Assembly: GCA_963708045.1 (NCBI GenBank)
Contig: OY970181.1
Location: forward strand, 67,740 to 131,739
Direction: 5' to 3'
From: an uncultured bacterium
GTDB taxonomy: Bacteria; Patescibacteriota; Patescibacteriia; CAIQCM01
DNA: 64,000 nt
Below the pieces are notes generated by a model. The model made no database searches. It had not been told where the DNA came from and saw nothing but the letters and a program-made list of their open reading frames with translations. A program made the position numbers and the translations under genes. Shown here piece by piece: positions 9,271 through 18,094 of the stretch; position 1 is the first letter of the stretch, and each line of letters begins with the position of its first letter.

Positions 9271-10038
9271 ATGTCCACACTTGCAGACCTGGCAGCAGAA
9301 AACTTCGTGCAACTAGCCGCCAACAAATACCCTGGCCGGATCGTTTTCGCTGGCACGAGCTCTTGGGGCGCGATTCTCCAAGGACTCATCATCACCGTGC
9401 GCAGCAAGCCCAATCAGAATCGCGTCCTCGTTCCAGTGCCCGAGCCGAACCCTAACAACGAAGTAGGAACAGAGTTTGCCGACCCAGTTGCCGCCCACGG
9501 CGTTGATCCAACCAACATTCTCTACTTGGCGATGTCCGAAGATACCCACTCGTTCATAACGAGTAACGGCCAACATACCGCGATCATTTACTCAACGCAT
9601 CGCAACCTCGCCCTAGCCGACGGCCTTATGCAGGCCGGATGGAGGTATGAAGAGGACTCAGCTACAACGCCACGCATCGCCGTCCGCTCTTGGATCGGAT
9701 TGAATAATATCGTTCATACCCAATTCGCTGTTCTCAAAAAATCACTCTTTGACGACAGTGTCGTCGCGAACAACTTCCGCTACGACAACATTCCATCCGG
9801 TTTCGGTTTCTACATCTCAACCTACGAGCACGATGGCAATCCGCCACCTCCGTTCGTCGGCGAGCCGCGGCTGATTCCACTCATCGGATCTGATCTTGCC
9901 GACATCACCGACAGCCTCTGGAACGCTATGAGCCGCGACTATCGCGTGGCGATCGCGGTCAAAGAGATTGACCCCAAAACCTTCAAGTCGTGCACTCACA
10001 TCGTGAACCGCTTTCCAAAGGCTCCGACCGAGCCATAG
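9271..10038 (+). CDS. PurO-like (archaeal-type IMP cyclohydrolase family) protein, tentative
   Basis: The N-terminal GRIVFAG...ITVRSKPNQNR and the internal TPRIA motif resemble the PF07826 PurO pattern as recalled from memory. Local GC is up to about 62%, and the gene is flanked by repeat elements. Confidence 0.4.
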   Translation: MSTLADLAAENFVQLAANKYPGRIVFAGTSSWGAILQGLIITVRSKPNQNRVLVPVPEPNPNNEVGTEFADPVAAHGVDPTNILYLAMSEDTHSFITSNGQHTAIIYSTHRNLALADGLMQAGWRYEEDSATTPRIAVRSWIGLNNIVHTQFAVLKKSLFDDSVVANNFRYDNIPSGFGFYISTYEHDGNPPPPFVGEPRLIPLIGSDLADITDSLWNAMSRDYRVAIAVKEIDPKTFKSCTHIVNRFPKAPTEP

Positions 10039-12994: not shown

Positions 12995-13227
12995 AGAAAT
13001 TTATAATTTAGTATTTAATTATAGCGCATTTCTGCGATTTTGGCAAGTTTGCTCTCCCCTTTTACTATATCTTTGGTAATAAGGCAAGGGTTTAACGGGG
13101 TTTTTTGCTTTAAAAGCCTTATTCGCCCAAGGCACGAGAAACGACCAGCCAGAAGACGAAACCGATAATGTTGACAGCTTTTAGTAATATGTTACAATCT
13201 CTATGTACTGATGTACCAGTACATAGT

Positions 13228-13503
13228 ATGAATGAAAAATATCGTAAGGAGTTGGTTGATCTGCTTGCGAACATAAAAGATTCCAAACTGATGAATCTCT
13301 TCCTAGAAGACCTTCTGACACCGGCTGAGTTAAAAGAAATTGTTTCGCGCTGGCAAATAATCAAACAATTATCAAAAAACGTGCCACAACGAAAAATTTC
13401 GTCTGGGTTAGGCGTGAGCATTGCTAAAATTACCAGAGGGTCGCGCGAACTAATGAATAAAAACGGCGGCTTTTGGAAAATATTAAAAAATACCAATGTC
13501 TAA
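13228..13503 (+). CDS. YerC/YecD-like Trp-repressor-fold protein
   Basis: About 92 aa from Met 13228. The LEDLLTPAEL...GLGVSIAKITRGSREL pattern matches the TrpR-like YerC family. Confidence 0.6.
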   Translation: MNEKYRKELVDLLANIKDSKLMNLFLEDLLTPAELKEIVSRWQIIKQLSKNVPQRKISSGLGVSIAKITRGSRELMNKNGGFWKILKNTNV

Positions 13504-13589
13504 TAATTTTTTAAACAAACAATTAGGTTGGTGGCGGACTTGCAACAACGTGGGCAAGATCCGTTTTTAATGCTAAACAAGCTTTTTAA

Positions 13590-13622
13590 AACGCCCGGAT
13601 CTGCCCCGGGCGTTTTTATTTG
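13590..13622 (+). terminator. Rho-independent terminator
   Basis: aaaacgcccggatctgccccgggcgtttttattt. Confidence 0.75.
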
Positions 13623-13694
13623 GAACAGGGTTGTGAATGGTTCATTCCCCTGCTCAGACAAAAACGTTCCTTAAAAAATCCGAAGGAGGCAGTT

Positions 13695-14789
13695 ATGCCA
13701 TTTCGCACCGACGCATCAGAAAGCCGATTGGTTGGAATCGGAATTGACTTAACCGAAATCTGCAACCGCCGCTGTCCGACTTGTTTTGCGGCACATACCC
13801 CGCAGAATATGTCGCTCGCGATTTACCAAAAAATCGTTGACGAAGCCGCTCAGAACAAATTCACCGAGCTATATATTCTCGGCGGTGAGCCAACCTTGCA
13901 TCCCGATATTTTGGAATGTCTGCAATATTCCAAAAATAAATTCAACCTTGTCATCTTGGTAACGAACATGGATCGCTTGGCCGACCGCGACTTTTGCGCG
14001 GCCGTGGAAAACCAAGGGGTGGTCATCGCCGGACAACGGCATACGCTTGGCAAAAATACCCACAGCCTAAGACTTGAACAATTGCTTGCTGGCGGCGACC
14101 ATCTGCACACTTCTAACCAGGCTTGGGAAAACGTGGCCGCAATTTTTCCGCCTGATCGCGTTTGTGTCCAGTGCTGTATTACCGCGCCGGTCATTGAAAA
14201 CGGCGACATCTTTGATGTCTTTCGCTTCGCACGGCAAATGGGTTATGAGCCGGTAATGGAATTTACCAAAGAAGGCGGTTCGTTCAAGCGCGGCGGAGCG
14301 TTGGATATTCAACCATCAACAATGATGAAGGTGCTTAGGGAGTTCCAACGCATTGATCGCGAAGAATTTAATCTGCCTGGCGCAAGTCTGCTTTCGCCAC
14401 AAGCATACGGAAAAACTTGCCATATGCAAGAAACGTCAATTCACTTTCGCGTGATGGGCGAAGCTGTTCCTTGTGTCGGACATCCAGCCTTAAGCTACGG
14501 AAACATTAGAACGAGCGATCTTAGTAAAATACTAAATCATCCGCTTCGGTCGCAGATTGCGTCGCCCGCAACGTGGGTCTATGGCTACTGCCGCGATACT
14601 TGCGAACACTTTGGGCTTTGCACGGGCGGCTGCCGCGGATCAAGTTACGACATGTCAGGGTGTTACCGGGCAAGCTTCTACTATTGCCCGCATATTCCGC
14701 GCGATCGTCTGAATCTCGCCGATATGATTCCGCCAAGTTGCGACGGTTGCCCGCTTAAAGGCAACTCAACCTGTCATCCTAAACGGTGA
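13695..14789 (+). CDS. Radical SAM / SPASM-domain enzyme (peptide-modifying or anSME-like maturase)
   Basis: A CNRRCPTC (CX3CX2C) cluster near the N-terminus. The C-terminal auxiliary-cluster region is Cys-rich and includes CRDTCEHFGLCTGGCRG (CX3CX5CX3C, a SPASM-like spacing). The RBS ggagg precedes ATG 13695. Confidence 0.8.
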   Translation: MPFRTDASESRLVGIGIDLTEICNRRCPTCFAAHTPQNMSLAIYQKIVDEAAQNKFTELYILGGEPTLHPDILECLQYSKNKFNLVILVTNMDRLADRDFCAAVENQGVVIAGQRHTLGKNTHSLRLEQLLAGGDHLHTSNQAWENVAAIFPPDRVCVQCCITAPVIENGDIFDVFRFARQMGYEPVMEFTKEGGSFKRGGALDIQPSTMMKVLREFQRIDREEFNLPGASLLSPQAYGKTCHMQETSIHFRVMGEAVPCVGHPALSYGNIRTSDLSKILNHPLRSQIASPATWVYGYCRDTCEHFGLCTGGCRGSSYDMSGCYRASFYYCPHIPRDRLNLADMIPPSCDGCPLKGNSTCHPKR

Positions 14790-14857
14790 CGCCGCCGCGC
14801 GGGAGCTGTAGTATGTAAATACTAGAGCTCCCGCATTTTCCTTTAATTAAAAAACGT

Positions 14858-15589
14858 ATGGGAAAAAATTCAATTTATAAAAACCAGGTAAAAATATTGG
14901 ATAATGTTTTTGATATTCAAAAAATTATTTCCGTCCGTTTTTCCAATACCAAAACCGACGCCTATAAAAAATATAACGACACTGCCTGCACTATTTTGGC
15001 GCGATGTTTTAAAAACAAAATTTTAACCTATATAGATCGCCGCGTTGGCCAGTCTTGTCCGGGTGGTAATTATTTTTTAGGCATCATCCCTGCAAAAAAA
15101 AATGCGCTGCGCGGAACATACGTTATGGACGAAAAAGTTTTTAAAACTAATGCCGGTTGCGACGCGTTTATAAACAAACTACCAAAATTTCCAAGAGCGG
15201 CGCAAAAAAATTTCGTGTTGTTTTCTCCACTCTTTAAAGAAACAAAAAAACCAGACATCATAATTTTACTCGTAAACGCCGCGCAAGTCGGGCGGCTTTT
15301 GGGCTTGGGCGCGTATCGTCAATTTTCTTATCCGCAAATTCTTCCGGCAATTTCAACTTGCGCCAGTATTTACGCGCCGCTTGACACGAACAGCATTCAC
15401 CTTAACTTTATTGATTATTTTGACAGATATTATCAAGGAAAACAGGCTGGTGGATTATTATGGAGCGATACGGACATAATCGTTTCTATGCCATATCGTC
15501 TTTTTTGCAAATTAATCCACGACGCCCCGCTTTCGGCCCACGGCAGTTATAAGCCAAATATCAAACCGCAAAAAATTGATCCGATATAA
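14858..15589 (+). CDS. Hypothetical protein, tentatively DUF169 family
   Basis: A 243-aa ORF that directly follows the rSAM gene after a hairpin. The family assignment comes from motif memory (SCPGGNYFLG) and is unverified. Confidence 0.45.
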   Translation: MGKNSIYKNQVKILDNVFDIQKIISVRFSNTKTDAYKKYNDTACTILARCFKNKILTYIDRRVGQSCPGGNYFLGIIPAKKNALRGTYVMDEKVFKTNAGCDAFINKLPKFPRAAQKNFVLFSPLFKETKKPDIIILLVNAAQVGRLLGLGAYRQFSYPQILPAISTCASIYAPLDTNSIHLNFIDYFDRYYQGKQAGGLLWSDTDIIVSMPYRLFCKLIHDAPLSAHGSYKPNIKPQKIDPI

Positions 15590-15590
15590 A

Positions 15591-15620
15591 AATACTCCGC
15601 CAATTGGCGGAGTATTTTAT
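15591..15620. terminator. Bidirectional terminator between DUF169 gene and gyrA
   Basis: aaaatactccgccaattggcggagtatttt. Confidence 0.7.
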
Positions 15621-15629
15621 TGATAAATT

Positions 15630-18094
15630 TTAGACAATGGTGACCGTGGACAGCGCGTCGTTTTCTTCCTTAAAGCGCATAATGCGAACGCCTTGGGTGG
15701 CGCGGCCGATCGTCCGAATCTCGCCCAAAGCCAAACGAATAACTTGGCCATGATTGGAGATCGCAACGATATCGCGTTCATCTTTGGCCGAAACAACAAA
15801 GCCGGTTACGATCTCGCCCGTCTTGGCCGTGACTTCGGCCGTCTTAATGCCGGAGCCGCCGCGCCCTTGCAAACGATATTCTTTCAAGTTAGTGCGTTTG
15901 CCAAAACCGTGCGCCATGACGACCAAAAGTTCCAGCAAATTCTTTTTTACTTCTTCGGAAGAAACAACGTCCATGCCGACAATGTAGTCACCGCGCTTTA
16001 ACTTCATTCCGCGGACGCCCGAAGCGGTACGTCCCATAGAACGAACATCTTTTTCTTCAAAGCGGATGGACATTCCTTTGCCGGTAATGATGACGATTTC
16101 GTCTTTGCCGGTTGAAGGACGAACATATTCAAGTGAATCCTGTTCGTGGAGTTTAAGCGCGATCAAGCCAGAGCGGCGAACTTGGGCAAATTCAGCGATC
16201 TCGGTTTTCTTAATCACACCCTCTTTTGTAATCATCACAAGATACTTAGCGTCGGGCATATCCGAAATCGGCAAAACAGCCGTAACTTTTTCGCTTGGCG
16301 CAAGCTGGAGGAAATTAACCAGTGCCTGTCCCTTGGCCGTTCGCGAGGCCGGCGGAATATCATATGCCTTAAGTTGGAAGACGCGGCCGCGCGACGTAAA
16401 GAAGAGAACATCGGCGTGCGTGCTCGTTGTAAACAACTGTTCAACCATATCTTCTTCTTTGGTCGCAACGCCGATCACGCCCTTGCCGCCGCGCGATTGG
16501 GCGTGGAACGTGTCCGGCGGCACGCGTTTTACATAGCCATCACCGGTAATAATGACAATCGTGGACTCATCAGGAATAACGTCTTCCATTGAAAATTCTT
16601 TAACCCCATGCGCGACGACTTGCGTCCGGCGCTCGTCGCCAAATTTGTCGCGAAGCCCAATGACCTCGTCGCGGACGATTTGCAAAATGCGTTTGGGCGA
16701 CGCCAAAATCGCCATCAGTTCTTTGATAATCTTTTTCTTTTCTTCAAGTTCGGTTTCAACCTTAATTCGTTCCAGGTTGGCAAGCTGCTGCAAGCGCATT
16801 TCCAAAATCGCAACCGTCTGCGCGTCCGAAAGCTTAAACTGCTTGATCAAATTAATCTTGGCTTCGTCTTTGTCCGTAGATTTTTTGATCGTCGCAATGA
16901 CCTTGTCAATATGAAGAATGGCAATGGATAATCCTTCCAAAATATGAGCCCGTTCTTTGGCGCGCATAAGGTCAAATTCGGTGCGCTTTCGGACAACGAC
17001 TTCGCGATGCTTAATATATTCTTCTAACAAAGTTTTTAAATTAAGCACGCGCGGCTGGATACCATCCACGAGCGACAGCATATTCACATGGAAAGTTTCC
17101 TGCAGCTGCGTCTGTTGGAACAAACGATTTAAAACTTTCTTTGGGTACGCGTCTTTTTTAAGTTCAATTACAACGCGCACGCCGTCCTTGTTGGACTCGT
17201 CGCGAATATCGCGGATGCCGTCAATTTTTTTGTCGCGAACCAGATCGGCGATTTTTTCCAAAAGCGTCGCTTTGTTTACCTGATAAGGAATTTCATTGAC
17301 GATGATCTTAAAAGCGCCGGCGCTATCTTCAACGATTTCCGTTTTGGCGCGCAAGTAATCGGCCCGCGACCAGTAACATAAGCCGAGAGAATTTCTTTCT
17401 TGTTATAAATAATGCCGCCGGTCGGAAAATCAGGTCCTTGAACAATATTGGTTAAATCTTCAACCGTTGAATCTGGCTCGTCAATAACTTTGACAATCGC
17501 GTTAGTAATTTCTGTCAGGTTGTGCGGCGGAATGTTCGTGGCCATGCCGACGGCAATGCCGACCGTGCCGTTAAGAAGCAAGTTGGGCAATTTTCCCGGA
17601 AACACCGACGGCTCTTTGTGCGAACCATCATAGTTCGGAATAAACGGAACCGTTTCTTTATCAAGATCAAAAAGAAGTTCTTCGGCGATCGGCGAAAGTT
17701 TGGCTTCGGTATAACGCATGGCCGCGGCGCCATCGCCGTCCATTGAGCCAAAGTTTCCTTGGCCATTCACGAGCGGATAGCGCATAGAGAAATCCTGCGC
17801 CATGCGCACCATTGATTCGTAAACCGCGGAGTCGCCGTGCGGATGGTATTTACCAAGCACTTCGCCGACCACAGTCGCCGATTTTTTGAATTTAGCGTTA
17901 GCGCGAAGGCCGATCGCCCACATCGCATAAAGAATGCGGCGATGCACTGGTTTCATGCCGTCTCTGGAGTCGGGAAGGGCGCGAGCAACAATGACTGACA
18001 TTGCGTAGTCTAGATACGACTCCTGCATTTCCGTCGTAATCTGCCGTTCGTTTATCTTACCGATAAGAAATTCTTTTGGTTGTTTATCACTCAT
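15630..18094 (-). CDS. gyrA: DNA gyrase subunit A, interrupted by an apparent -1/+1 frameshift near 17355-17375
   Basis: The N-terminal ORF (17276..18094) has the GyrA active-site region and ends in an out-of-frame tail (...[14 protein letters not shown]). The C-terminal ORF (15630..17354) begins [10 protein letters not shown], whose homologous sequence is normally contiguous with the N-terminal part. The +1 frame across the junction reads ...RAKTEIVED. Confidence 0.85.

What the first reader, a model, noticed from the sequence alone, without database searches (positions are those of the whole stretch)
13228..15589. Orphan radical-SAM/SPASM maturase between a YerC/TrpR-like regulator gene and a putative DUF169-family gene
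The rSAM protein has CX3CX2C plus a C-terminal CX3CX5CX3C SPASM-like auxiliary-cluster region. Such enzymes normally modify a RiPP precursor, or a Cys/Ser in a protein substrate. No precursor ORF is evident within 300 bp. The conserved flanking pair may define a new three-gene module. The product or target could be a peptide encoded elsewhere or the neighbouring putative DUF169-family protein.
Basis: partly seen in the sequence, partly recalled or inferred. Interest (0 to 1): 0.6.

Follow-up and report, generated by a model that had tools for sequence, protein, structure and literature searches.

The report
Tryptophan-starvation operon with radical-SAM enzyme
A radical-SAM enzyme and a protein of unknown function sit where tryptophan-synthesis genes normally sit, behind a tryptophan repressor gene and a tryptophan-codon attenuator, so tiny-genome bacteria may obtain tryptophan by an undescribed route.

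Summary
The three genes are real: a TrpR-type repressor (13228-13503), a radical-SAM/SPASM protein (13695-14789) and a DUF169 protein (14858-15589).

A 24-codon leader ORF (13496-13570) carries tandem Trp codons (GWWRT). It is followed by mutually exclusive antiterminator and terminator hairpins. This is the E. coli trp attenuator layout. A near-consensus promoter with a GTAC-repeat, TrpR-operator-like palindrome precedes trpR.

In about 80 related loci, mostly from Patescibacteria:
- DUF169 directly follows the close rSAM orthologues in about 25 loci.
- The pair is preceded either by trpR plus a WW/WWW leader attenuator or by a T-box leader with an invariant UGG in the specifier position.
- Tryptophanyl-tRNA synthetase and tRNA-Trp genes are frequent neighbours.
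- In more distant clades a flavin-reductase-like protein replaces DUF169.

No RiPP precursor, RRE domain or sulfatase accompanies the family.

Best reading: a tryptophan-starvation-induced operon whose enzyme pair supplies tryptophan by unknown radical chemistry. The regulation is well supported in silico. The enzymatic role is inferred. I found no description of this in the literature searched.

The parts
13171..13198 (+). Sigma-70-type promoter of the operon: TTGACA, 16 nt spacer, TACAAT with a TG extension
   Evidence: 11 of 12 consensus matches. It is the only strong + strand promoter-like site lying between the upstream gene and the rSAM start. A TTGACx -35 box sits at the same place upstream of trpR in related loci.
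13201..13226 (.). TrpR-operator-like palindrome CTATGTACTG-N6-CAGTACATAG with three GTAC motifs, directly after the -10 box
   Evidence: Perfect 10-nt inverted repeat (I2). It is the only perfect copy in the 64-kb window. GTAC repeats of the form TGTACT..GTAC..AGTACA occur at the same position upstream of trpR in 7 of 8 loci. The resemblance to the E. coli GTACT/AGTAC operator half-sites is from memory.
13228..13503 (+). trpR-type repressor gene (91 aa)
   Evidence: PF01371 E 2.4e-22. TIGR01321 scores 64.8 bits, just under its cut-off. Best PDB hits are E. coli Trp repressor chains, with the LTPxE and IAxITRGS motifs aligned. An exact 91-aa protein is on record.
13496..13570 (+). Leader peptide ORF MSNNFLNKQLGWWRTCNNVGKIRF. 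Tandem Trp codons lie at 13529-13534. The start overlaps the trpR stop (ATGTCTAA), so translation is probably coupled.
   Evidence: Read from the sequence. Homologous leaders carry WW or WWW in L009, L036, L079, L080, L081 and L013, and a single W in L010 and L032. The chance of a WW in such an ORF is about 0.003.
13534..13564 (+). Attenuator regions 1 (13534-13543) and 2 (13553-13563), which form the 1:2 hairpin
   Evidence: ViennaRNA fold, -12.5 kcal/mol. The same arrangement occurs in most of the 7 aligned leaders.
13552..13607 (+). Antiterminator: region 2 (13552-13563, GGGCAAGATCCG) pairs with region 3 (13596-13607, CGGATCTGCCCC)
   Evidence: I3. Energy is -19.7 kcal/mol in the window and -18.6 to -28.7 in the 7 leaders. 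88% of cells pair and 3 pairs carry compensatory double changes. Only 2 of 500 shuffles reach the covariation score.
13588..13621 (+). Intrinsic terminator of the attenuator: AAAACGCCCGG / CCGGGCGTTTT followed by a U-run. Its 5' arm and loop overlap region 3.
   Evidence: I1. Energy is -18.5 kcal/mol. 82% of cells pair and 3 pairs carry double changes. Rfam Trp_leader RF00513 is the best Rfam hit on 13523-13619, at 28.4 bits against a gathering score of 41, E 0.0011.
13626..13672 (+). Conserved 5'-UTR element of unknown role: hairpin 13626-13652, then CAGACAAAAAC and GTTCCTT, ahead of the AGGAGG ribosome-binding site at 13684-13689
   Evidence: Alignment of 7 leaders shows the hairpin covarying as GGYGAA/UUCRCC. 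The ACAG..GTTCTTT..AAGGAGG part is also seen after the T-box terminators.
13695..14789 (+). Radical SAM/SPASM enzyme (364 aa). It has an invariant N-terminus MPFR(E), the CX3CX2C motif, eight SPASM-region Cys and a C-terminal C349/C352/C360 motif.
   Evidence: AF2 model pLDDT 85. Nearest solved folds are CteB, SkfB, anSME, SuiB and PqqE at TM about 0.6 and 13-20% identity. The family is very small: about 20 clusters above 200 bits among 1.84 billion representatives.
14799..14834 (+). Intercistronic hairpin GCGGGAGCT..AGCTCCCGC between the rSAM stop and the DUF169 start
   Evidence: Read from the sequence. Its conservation was not examined.
14858..15589 (+). DUF169 protein (243 aa from ATG 14858; a public annotation starts at TTG 14897, giving 230 aa)
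   Evidence: PF02596 E 6e-23. The subfamily has 81 proteins. Invariant residues are D41, C44, R49, C67, G69, Y88, E92, F95, R146, G149, N183, D186, Y187, D189, R190, Q193 and G229. AF2 pLDDT is 92 with no solved structural relative.
15590..15618 (.). Bidirectional terminator hairpin between DUF169 and the convergent gyrA; it marks the end of the operon
   Evidence: AAAATACTCCGCC-AATT-GGCGGAGTATTTT, read from the sequence.

Best explanation
The region 13171-15618 is one tryptophan-controlled operon: promoter plus TrpR operator, trpR, a translationally coupled Trp-codon leader peptide, a terminator/antiterminator attenuator, the rSAM/SPASM gene, the DUF169 gene and a final terminator.

How it would work. 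When tryptophan is plentiful, Trp-bound TrpR closes the promoter. Ribosomes also run through the two Trp codons to the leader stop and cover region 2, so the 3:4 terminator forms. When charged tRNA-Trp is scarce, the ribosome stalls at 13529-13534. Region 2 begins 18 nt further on, stays free and pairs with region 3. Transcription then reads into rSAM and DUF169.

The enzyme pair is therefore made only under tryptophan starvation. Its most likely task is to supply tryptophan, by salvage or synthesis from a precursor taken up from outside. It occupies the position that trpBA holds in the chlamydial trpR-IGR-trpBA operon.

The rSAM/SPASM protein is the constant catalytic part. I infer a SAM-derived 5'-deoxyadenosyl radical acting on a small molecule, with auxiliary Fe-S clusters to move electrons. 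DUF169 is an exchangeable partner, replaced by a flavin-reductase-like protein in other clades.

Shown in silico: gene identities, the leader/attenuator architecture and its conservation, the T-box replacement, and the TrpRS, tRNA-Trp and TrpR neighbourhoods. Inferred: that the regulation works as in E. coli, that the product is tryptophan or its immediate precursor, and the chemistry.
For: Regulation in the window:
- Promoter and GTAC palindrome.
- Leader ORF with GWWRT, the 1:2, 2:3 and 3:4 hairpins, and a canonical layout. Region 2 starts 15-21 nt after the last tandem Trp codon and ends 3-15 nt before the leader stop, in all 7 aligned leaders.
- Compensatory changes in both helices.
- Only one such element per locus, always upstream of the rSAM gene.
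- Rfam Trp_leader is the top hit.

Independent Trp-sensing devices on orthologous operons:
- trpR plus a WW leader in L009, L036, L079 and L080. L081 has a WWW leader with no trpR called. L010 and L032 have trpR plus a single-W leader.
- A WWW leader in L013.
- T-box leaders in L001, L011, L014, L019, L038-L042, L037 and L046. The five searched with Rfam (L001, L019, L038, L040, L041) gave RF00230 E 5.5e-12 to 2.9e-5. They carry an invariant UGG followed by G in the 3'-side internal loop of stem I.

Neighbourhood:
- DUF169 lies directly downstream in about 25 loci.
- TrpRS lies within 3 genes in 13 distinct loci across Patescibacteria and DPANN archaea. All 6 tested exceed the TIGR00233 cut-off.
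- tRNA-Trp(CCA) genes are adjacent in L015 and L030.
- One contig reads trpR, a PALP-family gene, rSAM, DUF169, trpS.
- An amino-acid racemase adjoins the rSAM gene in 3 lineages.

The logic of dual TrpR plus TrpL (WW) control and the trpR-IGR-trpBA layout are described in PMC7755916.
Against: - No biochemical or expression data exist, and nothing identifies the substrate.
- Rfam hits for Trp_leader and T-box are below the curated gathering scores.
- The TrpR equivalog model is missed by 2.4 bits.
- Covariation rests on 7 related sequences.
- No TrpB-like gene lies in any fetched locus or in the window. The single PALP neighbour could not be read.
- I could not check whether these genomes lack the canonical trp genes.
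- Where trpS follows in the same operon, the Trp control could serve trpS. This does not apply to the window, L009, L010, L019, L038, L039, L079 or L080, which have no trpS there.
Confidence: 0.6

Rival explanations
1. The rSAM enzyme acts on a macromolecule of the tryptophan-charging machinery or on its own partner. It might mature DUF169, in the way anSME or QhpD mature their targets, or modify TrpRS or tRNA-Trp, so that translation copes with low tryptophan.
For: - Its size and its lack of an RRE resemble anSME (TM 0.63-0.64).
- TrpRS and tRNA-Trp are frequent neighbours.
- DUF169 has two invariant and two nearly invariant Cys.
- DUF169 is occasionally found in SepRS operons of archaea (PMC8762117).
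Against: - The adjacent partner is not constant. It is DUF169 in 27 loci, Flavin_Reduct in 17, never both, and neither in L015/L016.
- Many loci have no trpS nearby.
- From general knowledge, known Trp regulons contain biosynthesis, transport and the synthetase, not modification enzymes.
Confidence: 0.12
2. The WW-containing small ORF is a RiPP precursor. The rSAM/SPASM enzyme cross-links its Trp residues, as in streptide- or darobactin-like chemistry.
For: - A conserved 23-30-codon ORF with WW or WWW lies directly upstream of a SPASM enzyme.
- Several SPASM enzymes cross-link Trp. The weak NCBIfam hits include DynA and WgkB.
Against: - Peptide conservation is limited to the Trp codons and to the stretch that is region 2 of the RNA.
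- The ORF is embedded in a terminator/antiterminator with compensatory changes.
- Eleven orthologous loci have a T-box RNA and no upstream WW ORF.
- L010 and L032 have a single W.
- There is no RRE domain, and no transporter or protease neighbours were seen.
Confidence: 0.06
3. The pair consumes tryptophan or an indolic compound to make a cofactor, signal or secondary metabolite. The Trp sensing only coordinates it with the Trp supply.
For: The deltaproteobacterial relatives (41-43% identity) sit between a weak AMP-binding-like protein and a stand-alone NRPS Condensation domain. That looks like secondary metabolism.
Against: All three control devices switch genes on when Trp or charged tRNA-Trp is low. 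That is the opposite of what a Trp-consuming pathway needs. Organisms with genomes of about 1 Mb rarely keep secondary metabolism (general knowledge).
Confidence: 0.07
4. Hitch-hiking: the Trp control exists for trpR and trpS, and rSAM-DUF169 is an unrelated housekeeping Fe-S enzyme pair that merely shares the transcript.
For: trpS follows DUF169 in L001, L040 and the P0031 contig.
Against: In the window and in at least 10 other loci the attenuator or T-box precedes only rSAM-DUF169, with a terminator after DUF169 and no trpS. Three different sensing devices were recruited to the same gene pair.
Confidence: 0.06

Closest known systems
E. coli trp operon control (TrpR repression plus TrpL ribosome-mediated attenuation)
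   Same: A TrpR-family repressor. An operator that overlaps the promoter. A short leader ORF with tandem Trp codons (GWWRT here; KGWWRTS in E. coli TrpL, from memory). Alternative 1:2, 2:3 and 3:4 hairpins and a U-tailed terminator.
   Different: The structural genes are an rSAM/SPASM enzyme and DUF169, not trpEDCBA. trpR is the first gene of the same transcript, and the leader ORF is coupled to its stop codon. The sequence is below the Rfam RF00513 gathering score.
Chlamydia trachomatis trpR-IGR-trpBA tryptophan-salvage operon
   Same: The same gene order: trpR, a regulatory intergenic region, then two structural genes. It belongs to a reduced-genome organism that salvages rather than synthesises Trp (PMC7755916).
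   Different: The structural genes there are tryptophan synthase TrpB and TrpA. The chlamydial putative TrpL lacks consecutive Trp codons and is considered a poor attenuator, whereas here the attenuator looks canonical.
T-box(Trp) leaders of Firmicutes (Rfam RF00230)
   Same: Orthologous rSAM-DUF169 operons carry the GGUGG(U/C)ACCGCG T-box sequence, a terminator/antiterminator and a UGG triplet at the specifier position.
   Different: Stem I is very short. Scores are 40-66 bits against a gathering score of 93. The purine after the specifier is G. The window itself has no T-box.
anSME / AtsB-type SPASM enzymes (anaerobic sulfatase maturases)
   Same: About 360-370 aa. The radical SAM core starts near the N-terminus without an RRE. 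Two auxiliary-cluster Cys sets. Fold TM 0.63-0.64.
   Different: 13-20% identity only. The anSME model is not among the top matches. No sulfatase was seen among the annotated neighbours of any of about 80 loci. There is an extra C-terminal CX2CX7C motif and an invariant MPFRE N-terminus.
Trp-cross-linking RiPP SPASM maturases (SuiB/StrB, DarE, DynA, WgkB)
   Same: SPASM architecture and a link to tryptophan. There are weak domain-level hits.
   Different: No RRE and no dedicated precursor conserved across lineages. All scores are far below the family cut-offs.
DUF169 / COG2043 (Pfam PF02596)
   Same: The downstream gene is a clear member, at 82 bits.
   Different: The family has no known function and no solved structure. 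This subfamily is tied to a specific rSAM and to Trp control.

Membership tests
Radical SAM superfamily (PF04055) | CX3CX2C motif that binds the SAM-cleaving [4Fe-4S] cluster; score above the Pfam gathering score | tested here: met
   C23-X3-C27-X2-C30 is invariant in 16 aligned homologues. PF04055 scores 33.2 bits against a cut-off of 29.5.
SPASM domain (PF13186 / TIGR04085) | C-terminal Cys-rich domain for two auxiliary Fe-S clusters; score above the cut-offs | tested here: met
   PF13186 scores 23.7 against 21.5 and TIGR04085 28.8 against 27. Invariant Cys are 242, 260, 299, 303, 309, 313, 323 and 331. The core motif is CX3CX5CX3C rather than the usual CX2CX5CX3C.
Anaerobic sulfatase-maturating enzyme (anSME) | Match to the anSME equivalog model; a sulfatase gene with a Cys/Ser-X-P-X-R target nearby | tested here: not met
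   The anSME model is not among the 25 best NCBIfam hits, and all hits are far below their cut-offs. No sulfatase appears in the Pfam-annotated neighbourhoods.
RiPP radical SAM maturase | An N-terminal RRE (PqqD-like) domain or a separate RRE protein | tested here: not met
   The radical SAM motif begins at residue 23, so there is no N-terminal domain. No PqqD-like neighbour is present in the annotated loci.
RiPP radical SAM maturase | A precursor peptide gene conserved next to the enzyme across lineages | tested here: not met
   The WW ORF exists only where a terminator/antiterminator exists. The 9 T-box loci scanned have no upstream WW ORF, and no small-ORF family other than the Trp leaders recurred next to the rSAM across the loci.
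TrpR (Trp repressor, PF01371 / TIGR01321) | Sequence membership | tested here: met
   PF01371 scores 79.2 bits against a cut-off of 27. The best PDB relatives are E. coli TrpR at E 3.5e-6, ahead of the YerC-like structures. The equivalog model TIGR01321 scores 64.8 against 67.25 and is narrowly missed.
TrpR (Trp repressor) | L-tryptophan as corepressor and binding to GTACT-type operators | not testable with these tools
   Only indirect evidence. GTAC-repeat palindromes overlap the promoter in 7 of 8 loci. The LTP, R and ITRGS positions align with E. coli TrpR.
Ribosome-mediated trp attenuator (TrpL type, RF00513) | A short translated leader ORF with consecutive Trp codons | tested here: met
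   WW or WWW occurs in 7 of 9 leaders, at codons 11-14. Chance expectation is about 0.003 per ORF. Translation itself was not shown.
Ribosome-mediated trp attenuator (TrpL type, RF00513) | Mutually exclusive antiterminator (2:3) and terminator (3:4 plus U-run), placed so that a ribosome at the Trp codons frees region 2 and a ribosome at the stop codon masks it | tested here: met
   Searches give the energies and spacings in 7 leaders. Searches give 88% and 82% of cells paired and 3 compensatory pairs in each helix.
Ribosome-mediated trp attenuator (TrpL type, RF00513) | Rfam gathering score | tested here: not met
   28.4 bits in the window and 25.2 bits in L036, against 41. It is nevertheless the best of 4227 families on this stretch. 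It works like a trp leader but is not a curated member.
T-box leader (RF00230), in orthologous loci only | The T-box sequence and its terminator, a specifier triplet in the stem I loop, and the Rfam gathering score | tested here: inconclusive
   The T-box sequence, the terminator and full-length model matches at E 5.5e-12 to 2.9e-5 are present, but at 40-66 bits against 93. UGG is invariant in the 3'-side internal loop in 10 loci. tRNA binding was not tested.
DUF169 (PF02596) | Sequence membership | tested here: met
   82.2 bits against a cut-off of 27.
Canonical tryptophan biosynthesis enzymes (TrpA-G) | Homology of the structural genes to any Trp enzyme | tested here: not met
   Neither gene matches a Trp enzyme family. 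No TrpB-like sequence lies in the window or in 82 loci. Only a distant TrpD-like gene occurs in some clade-B loci.

The most novel reading that the evidence does not exclude
The rSAM/SPASM protein is a radical, PLP-independent tryptophan-forming enzyme. For example, it could couple C3 of environmental indole to the beta-carbon of an alanyl-type donor. That is the same oxidative sp3-C to arene C-C coupling that SPASM cyclophane and streptide synthases perform on peptides. Alternatively it could aromatise or close an indolic precursor. DUF169, or a flavin-reductase-like protein in other clades, would serve as the redox or substrate-handling partner. The neighbouring amino-acid racemase would correct the stereochemistry. 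This would be a new route to a proteinogenic amino acid, used by Patescibacteria and DPANN archaea that lack the classical pathway.
Probability: 0.15. Interest if true: 0.95.

Novelty: new variant of a known kind. Interest (0 to 1): 0.72.

Why it matters
Patescibacteria (CPR) and DPANN archaea are thought to depend on hosts for amino acids, and how they obtain tryptophan is not known.

Here a rare enzyme pair, an rSAM/SPASM protein and DUF169, has been placed under tryptophan-specific control. The control uses three different sensing devices: TrpR, a WW-leader attenuator and a T-box(Trp). That is the classical signature of a tryptophan-supply function.

If this is true, three things follow:
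- DUF169 and a new SPASM subfamily gain a first functional context.
- There is a testable candidate for a non-canonical tryptophan salvage or synthesis step.
- Ribosome-mediated trp attenuation and T-box control are shown to operate in CPR genomes.

The regulatory elements can be tested directly in E. coli reporters. The enzyme pair can be tested by complementing Trp auxotrophs and by anaerobic reconstitution.

Tried and rejected
- RiPP reading. I looked for precursor ORFs. The only conserved one is the Trp leader, and WW ORFs in T-box loci are out-of-frame artefacts inside the rSAM gene.
- anSME or sulfatase reading. No model match and no sulfatase neighbour.
- 'rSAM makes indole for TrpB'. 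tblastn with E. coli TrpB (sequence from memory) found nothing in 82 loci or the window. The one contig with a PALP gene between trpR and rSAM has no retrievable DNA. The PALP gene after DUF169 in L041 is a cysteine synthase.
- Rfam at gathering thresholds found only tRNAs in the window and loci.
- Literature. DUF169 has no assigned function. No paper links an rSAM enzyme to Trp regulons, T-boxes or CPR.
- Search of the 64-kb window for trpS, Flavin_Reduct, TrpD-like, BtpA, racemase or M20 relatives: none. A second TrpR-operator-like site: none convincing.
- Organism name: the exact-sequence look-up gave no names.


Full report
OBSERVATION

The window between 13168 and 15589 holds three co-directional ORFs.
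- The first is a Trp-repressor-family protein: PF01371, E 2.4e-22. It scores 64.8 bits on the TrpR equivalog model against a cut-off of 67.25, and only 26.7 on YerC/YecD. Its best solved relatives are E. coli Trp repressor chains.
- The second is a radical SAM/SPASM protein. All homologues begin at the ATG at 13695 with MPFR, which gives 364 aa. CX3CX2C is C23/C27/C30. Seven more Cys are invariant.
- The third is a clear DUF169 member (PF02596, 82 bits).

The exception is the statement that no small ORF lies upstream.

WHAT LIES BETWEEN THE GENES

A near-consensus promoter (TTGACA, 16 nt, TACAAT; 13171-13198) comes first. A perfect 10-nt inverted repeat, CTATGTACTG-N6-CAGTACATAG (13201-13226), follows it immediately. 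This repeat is unique in the window. The most probable trpR start, ATG 13228, comes next.

Related loci show the same -35 box and runs of GTAC motifs at this place in 7 of 8 cases. From memory, E. coli TrpR operators are built from GTACT/AGTAC half-sites.

A 24-codon ORF starts at ATG 13496 and overlaps the trpR stop codon. It encodes MSNNFLNKQLGWWRTCNNVGKIRF, with tandem Trp codons at 13529-13534, and ends at 13570.
- Region 2 (13552-13563) can pair with region 1, which lies just after the Trp codons, or with region 3 (13596-13607).
- Region 3 overlaps the 5' arm and the loop of a strong terminator (13588-13616 plus a U-run).
- Region 2 begins 18 nt after the Trp codons and ends 5 nt before the leader stop codon. 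A ribosome stalled at the Trp codons would leave it free. A ribosome at the stop codon would mask it.

This is the architecture of the E. coli trp attenuator, whose logic is summarised in PMC7755916. Of all 4227 Rfam families, the best match to 13523-13619 is Trp_leader RF00513. It is a full-length match at 28.4 bits, E 0.0011, below the gathering score of 41.

No separate promoter for the rSAM gene was found. A bidirectional terminator follows DUF169. The whole stretch therefore reads as one operon.

CONSERVATION

I fetched 82 related loci through the rSAM and DUF169 proteins. I clustered their ORFs.

The rSAM family is very small. There are 134 proteins at E<=1e-5 in 5.8 billion. About 20 clusters score above 200 bits among 1.84 billion representatives, with a steep drop to generic SPASM proteins. 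Named members are mostly Patescibacteria. More distant clades occur in DPANN archaea and Deltaproteobacteria.

Among orthologues at 56% identity or more, DUF169 is the next gene in about 25 distinct loci.

The same leader design occurs in L009, L010, L036, L079, L080 and L081, and in diverged form in L013 and L032. The peptides include:
- MQINSRKNYLAWWTCYDKGKIQF
- MNINFSNNHRAWWRAWQGHGEIQSFRC
- MSYNFGKKYQAWWWILHWHGKVHSYCC
- MKKIPTKNSMNWWRTPRKTGRIHF
- MTVDSIKNLSWWWTCHDKGKIHF
- MKNEFLKNLILVWWWVLHFKLQSPGFSYVR

Seven of nine leaders have two or three consecutive Trp codons. The chance expectation is about 0.003 per ORF.

In the seven alignable leaders, the antiterminator has -18.6 to -28.7 kcal/mol and the terminator -14 to -19 kcal/mol.
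- Antiterminator: 88% of cells pair, three pairs carry compensatory double changes, and only 2 of 500 shuffles reach the covariation score.
- Terminator: 82% of cells pair, with three double changes.
- Some 'unpaired' cells are one-column alignment shifts in two rows.

The element occurs once per locus, always before the rSAM gene.

A SECOND, INDEPENDENT DEVICE

Eleven other orthologous loci have no trpR and no leader ORF in front of the rSAM gene. These are L001, L011, L014, L019, L038-L042, L037 and L046. Instead they carry a T-box leader.
- The GGUGG(U/C)ACCGCG sequence and a terminator are present.
- The five loci searched with Rfam (L001, L019, L038, L040, L041) gave full-length RF00230 matches at E 5.5e-12 to 2.9e-5. 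Scores are 40-66 bits, under the gathering score of 93.
- Stem I is short. Its 3'-side internal loop always contains UGG followed by G, while the flanking bases vary. This is the position of the specifier codon. UGG is the Trp codon.
- A control T-box in L011, upstream of an unrelated operon, has a different stem I.

The same gene pair is thus controlled by TrpR, by a Trp-codon attenuator or by a T-box(Trp), depending on the lineage.

FURTHER TRYPTOPHAN LINKS

- A class-Ib aminoacyl-tRNA synthetase lies within three genes of the rSAM gene in 13 distinct loci, including Aenigmarchaeota. All six tested are TrpRS above the TIGR00233 cut-off.
- tRNA-Trp(CCA) genes adjoin the rSAM gene in L015 and L030.
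- One JGI contig reads trpR, a PALP-family gene of 415 aa, rSAM, DUF169, trpS. Its DNA could not be fetched, so I could not verify that the PALP gene is trpB.
- An amino-acid racemase (TIGR00035, above its cut-off) adjoins the rSAM gene in L003, L013 and L077.
- In clades at 35-45% identity, a Flavin_Reduct protein replaces DUF169: 17 loci against 27, never both.
- Some of those loci carry further T-box(UGG)-controlled genes. These include a TrpD-like gene, BtpA, HAD phosphatases, PfkB, an M20 amidohydrolase, an EamA transporter and a methyltransferase with a weak chorismate-mutase-like N-terminus.

WHAT THE PROTEINS LOOK LIKE

The rSAM model (pLDDT 85) resembles CteB, SkfB, anSME, SuiB and PqqE at TM about 0.6 and 13-20% identity. 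Profile hits to solved structures are generic. Like anSME, it has no N-terminal RRE. It adds a C-terminal C349/C352/C360 motif and an invariant MPFRE N-terminus.

DUF169 gives a confident model (pLDDT 92) with no solved structural or sequence relative. It has two invariant and two nearly invariant Cys. I found no function for DUF169 in the literature.

INTERPRETATION

All three devices switch genes on when tryptophan or charged tRNA-Trp is scarce. From established knowledge of the TrpR, TrpL and T-box regulons, genes under such control supply tryptophan by synthesis or transport, or charge it onto tRNA.

The layout trpR, regulatory spacer, two structural genes is that of the chlamydial salvage operon trpR-IGR-trpBA. 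I therefore read rSAM-DUF169 as a tryptophan-supply module of reduced-genome organisms. The rSAM enzyme is the constant catalytic part and DUF169 is an exchangeable partner.

I put confidence in the regulation at about 0.9, as an in-silico inference. I put the supply role at about 0.55-0.6. The chemistry is unknown.

The RiPP reading is disfavoured. The WW ORF is part of an RNA switch, it is replaced by a T-box elsewhere, and no RRE exists. The anSME reading fails for lack of a model match and of sulfatases. The remaining rivals are a macromolecular target (DUF169, TrpRS or tRNA-Trp), a Trp-consuming pathway, and hitch-hiking with trpS.

NOVELTY

The regulatory devices are known kinds. Their cargo is not. 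I found no paper that links a radical SAM enzyme or DUF169 to a Trp regulon, nor T-box or trp attenuation to CPR bacteria.

I rate this as a new variant of a known kind: a trp-operon-like unit with non-canonical structural genes. There is a minority chance, about 0.15, that it hides a categorically new, radical route to tryptophan.

LIMITS

- All evidence is computational.
- The Rfam matches are sub-threshold.
- Covariation rests on seven related sequences.
- I could not inspect whole genomes for canonical trp genes.
The nearest relatives are Patescibacteria MAGs, two of them labelled 'Gammaproteobacteria' in their records.

Noticed in passing
window 15630-18094 (- strand), break near 17345: gyrA is split into two overlapping ORFs (17276-18094 and 15630-17354) by a frameshift in '...GRGPIT|RAKTEIVED...'. 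Another assembly of the same organism (ERR15459707 contig) has an uninterrupted ORF of at least 743 aa there. A sequencing or assembly error in a homopolymer is likely.
   Followed up: partly
window 13626-13672: A conserved hairpin plus the CAGACAAAAAC/GTTCCTT motif lies between the attenuator terminator and the ribosome-binding site. The hairpin covaries in 7 loci. The ACAG..GTTCTTT..AAGGAGG part is also present downstream of the T-box terminators of orthologous operons. Its role is unknown.
   Followed up: partly
window 14799-14834: A 9-bp GC-rich hairpin followed by ATTTTCCTTT lies between the rSAM stop and the DUF169 start. It could be a partial terminator or a stabilising or processing element within the operon.
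   Followed up: no
L015 10516-16124; L016; L029; L030; L031; L026 9501; L008 9771: In Moraniibacteriota, Parcubacteria and related MAGs, further T-box leaders with the same UGG specifier precede uncharacterised genes next to the rSAM gene. These are LMWPc, a TrpD-like phosphoribosyltransferase (TIGR01245, 144 bits, below its cut-off), HAD phosphatases, a GNAT-like protein, an M20 amidohydrolase, PfkB, BtpA, a PPDK-like protein and an aminotransferase. This may be a larger non-canonical tryptophan regulon or pathway.
   Followed up: partly
L015 7766-7837 (-); L030 8896-8967 (+): tRNA genes with anticodon CCA (tRNA-Trp) lie directly beside the rSAM gene.
   Followed up: partly
L005/L023, L022, L024, L025, L027, L050, L052, L053, L055, L069: Deltaproteobacterial and Verrucomicrobial relatives (41-43% identity) always sit in front of a stand-alone NRPS Condensation-domain protein. 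Often a weak AMP-binding-like protein lies upstream. This is a different, secondary-metabolite-like context for the same rSAM family.
   Followed up: partly
rSAM N-terminus, window 13695-13709 and all loci: The first residues, MPFR(E), are invariant from Patescibacteria to archaea and Deltaproteobacteria, although the AF2 model leaves residues 1-9 disordered. A catalytic N-terminal Pro (after Met removal) or a partner-docking peptide is conceivable.
   Followed up: no
L014/L045 (rSAM-trpR-rSAM2) and L036 (rSAM2-trpR-leader-rSAM): A second, different radical SAM gene (356-376 aa) flanks trpR in some lineages. L014 and L045 lack DUF169, and the L036 contig ends directly after the rSAM gene. This rSAM may be another alternative partner.
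   Followed up: no
window 9271-10038 (+): An archaeal-type IMP cyclohydrolase-like protein (PF07826, E 3.5e-19; PurO-like) is encoded in what appears to be a bacterial reduced genome.
   Followed up: no
L009, L010 record titles: The two closest genome-collection relatives (69-71% identity) are labelled 'uncultured Gammaproteobacteria bacterium'. Their gene content and all other relatives point to Patescibacteria, so they are probably mislabelled MAGs.
   Followed up: no
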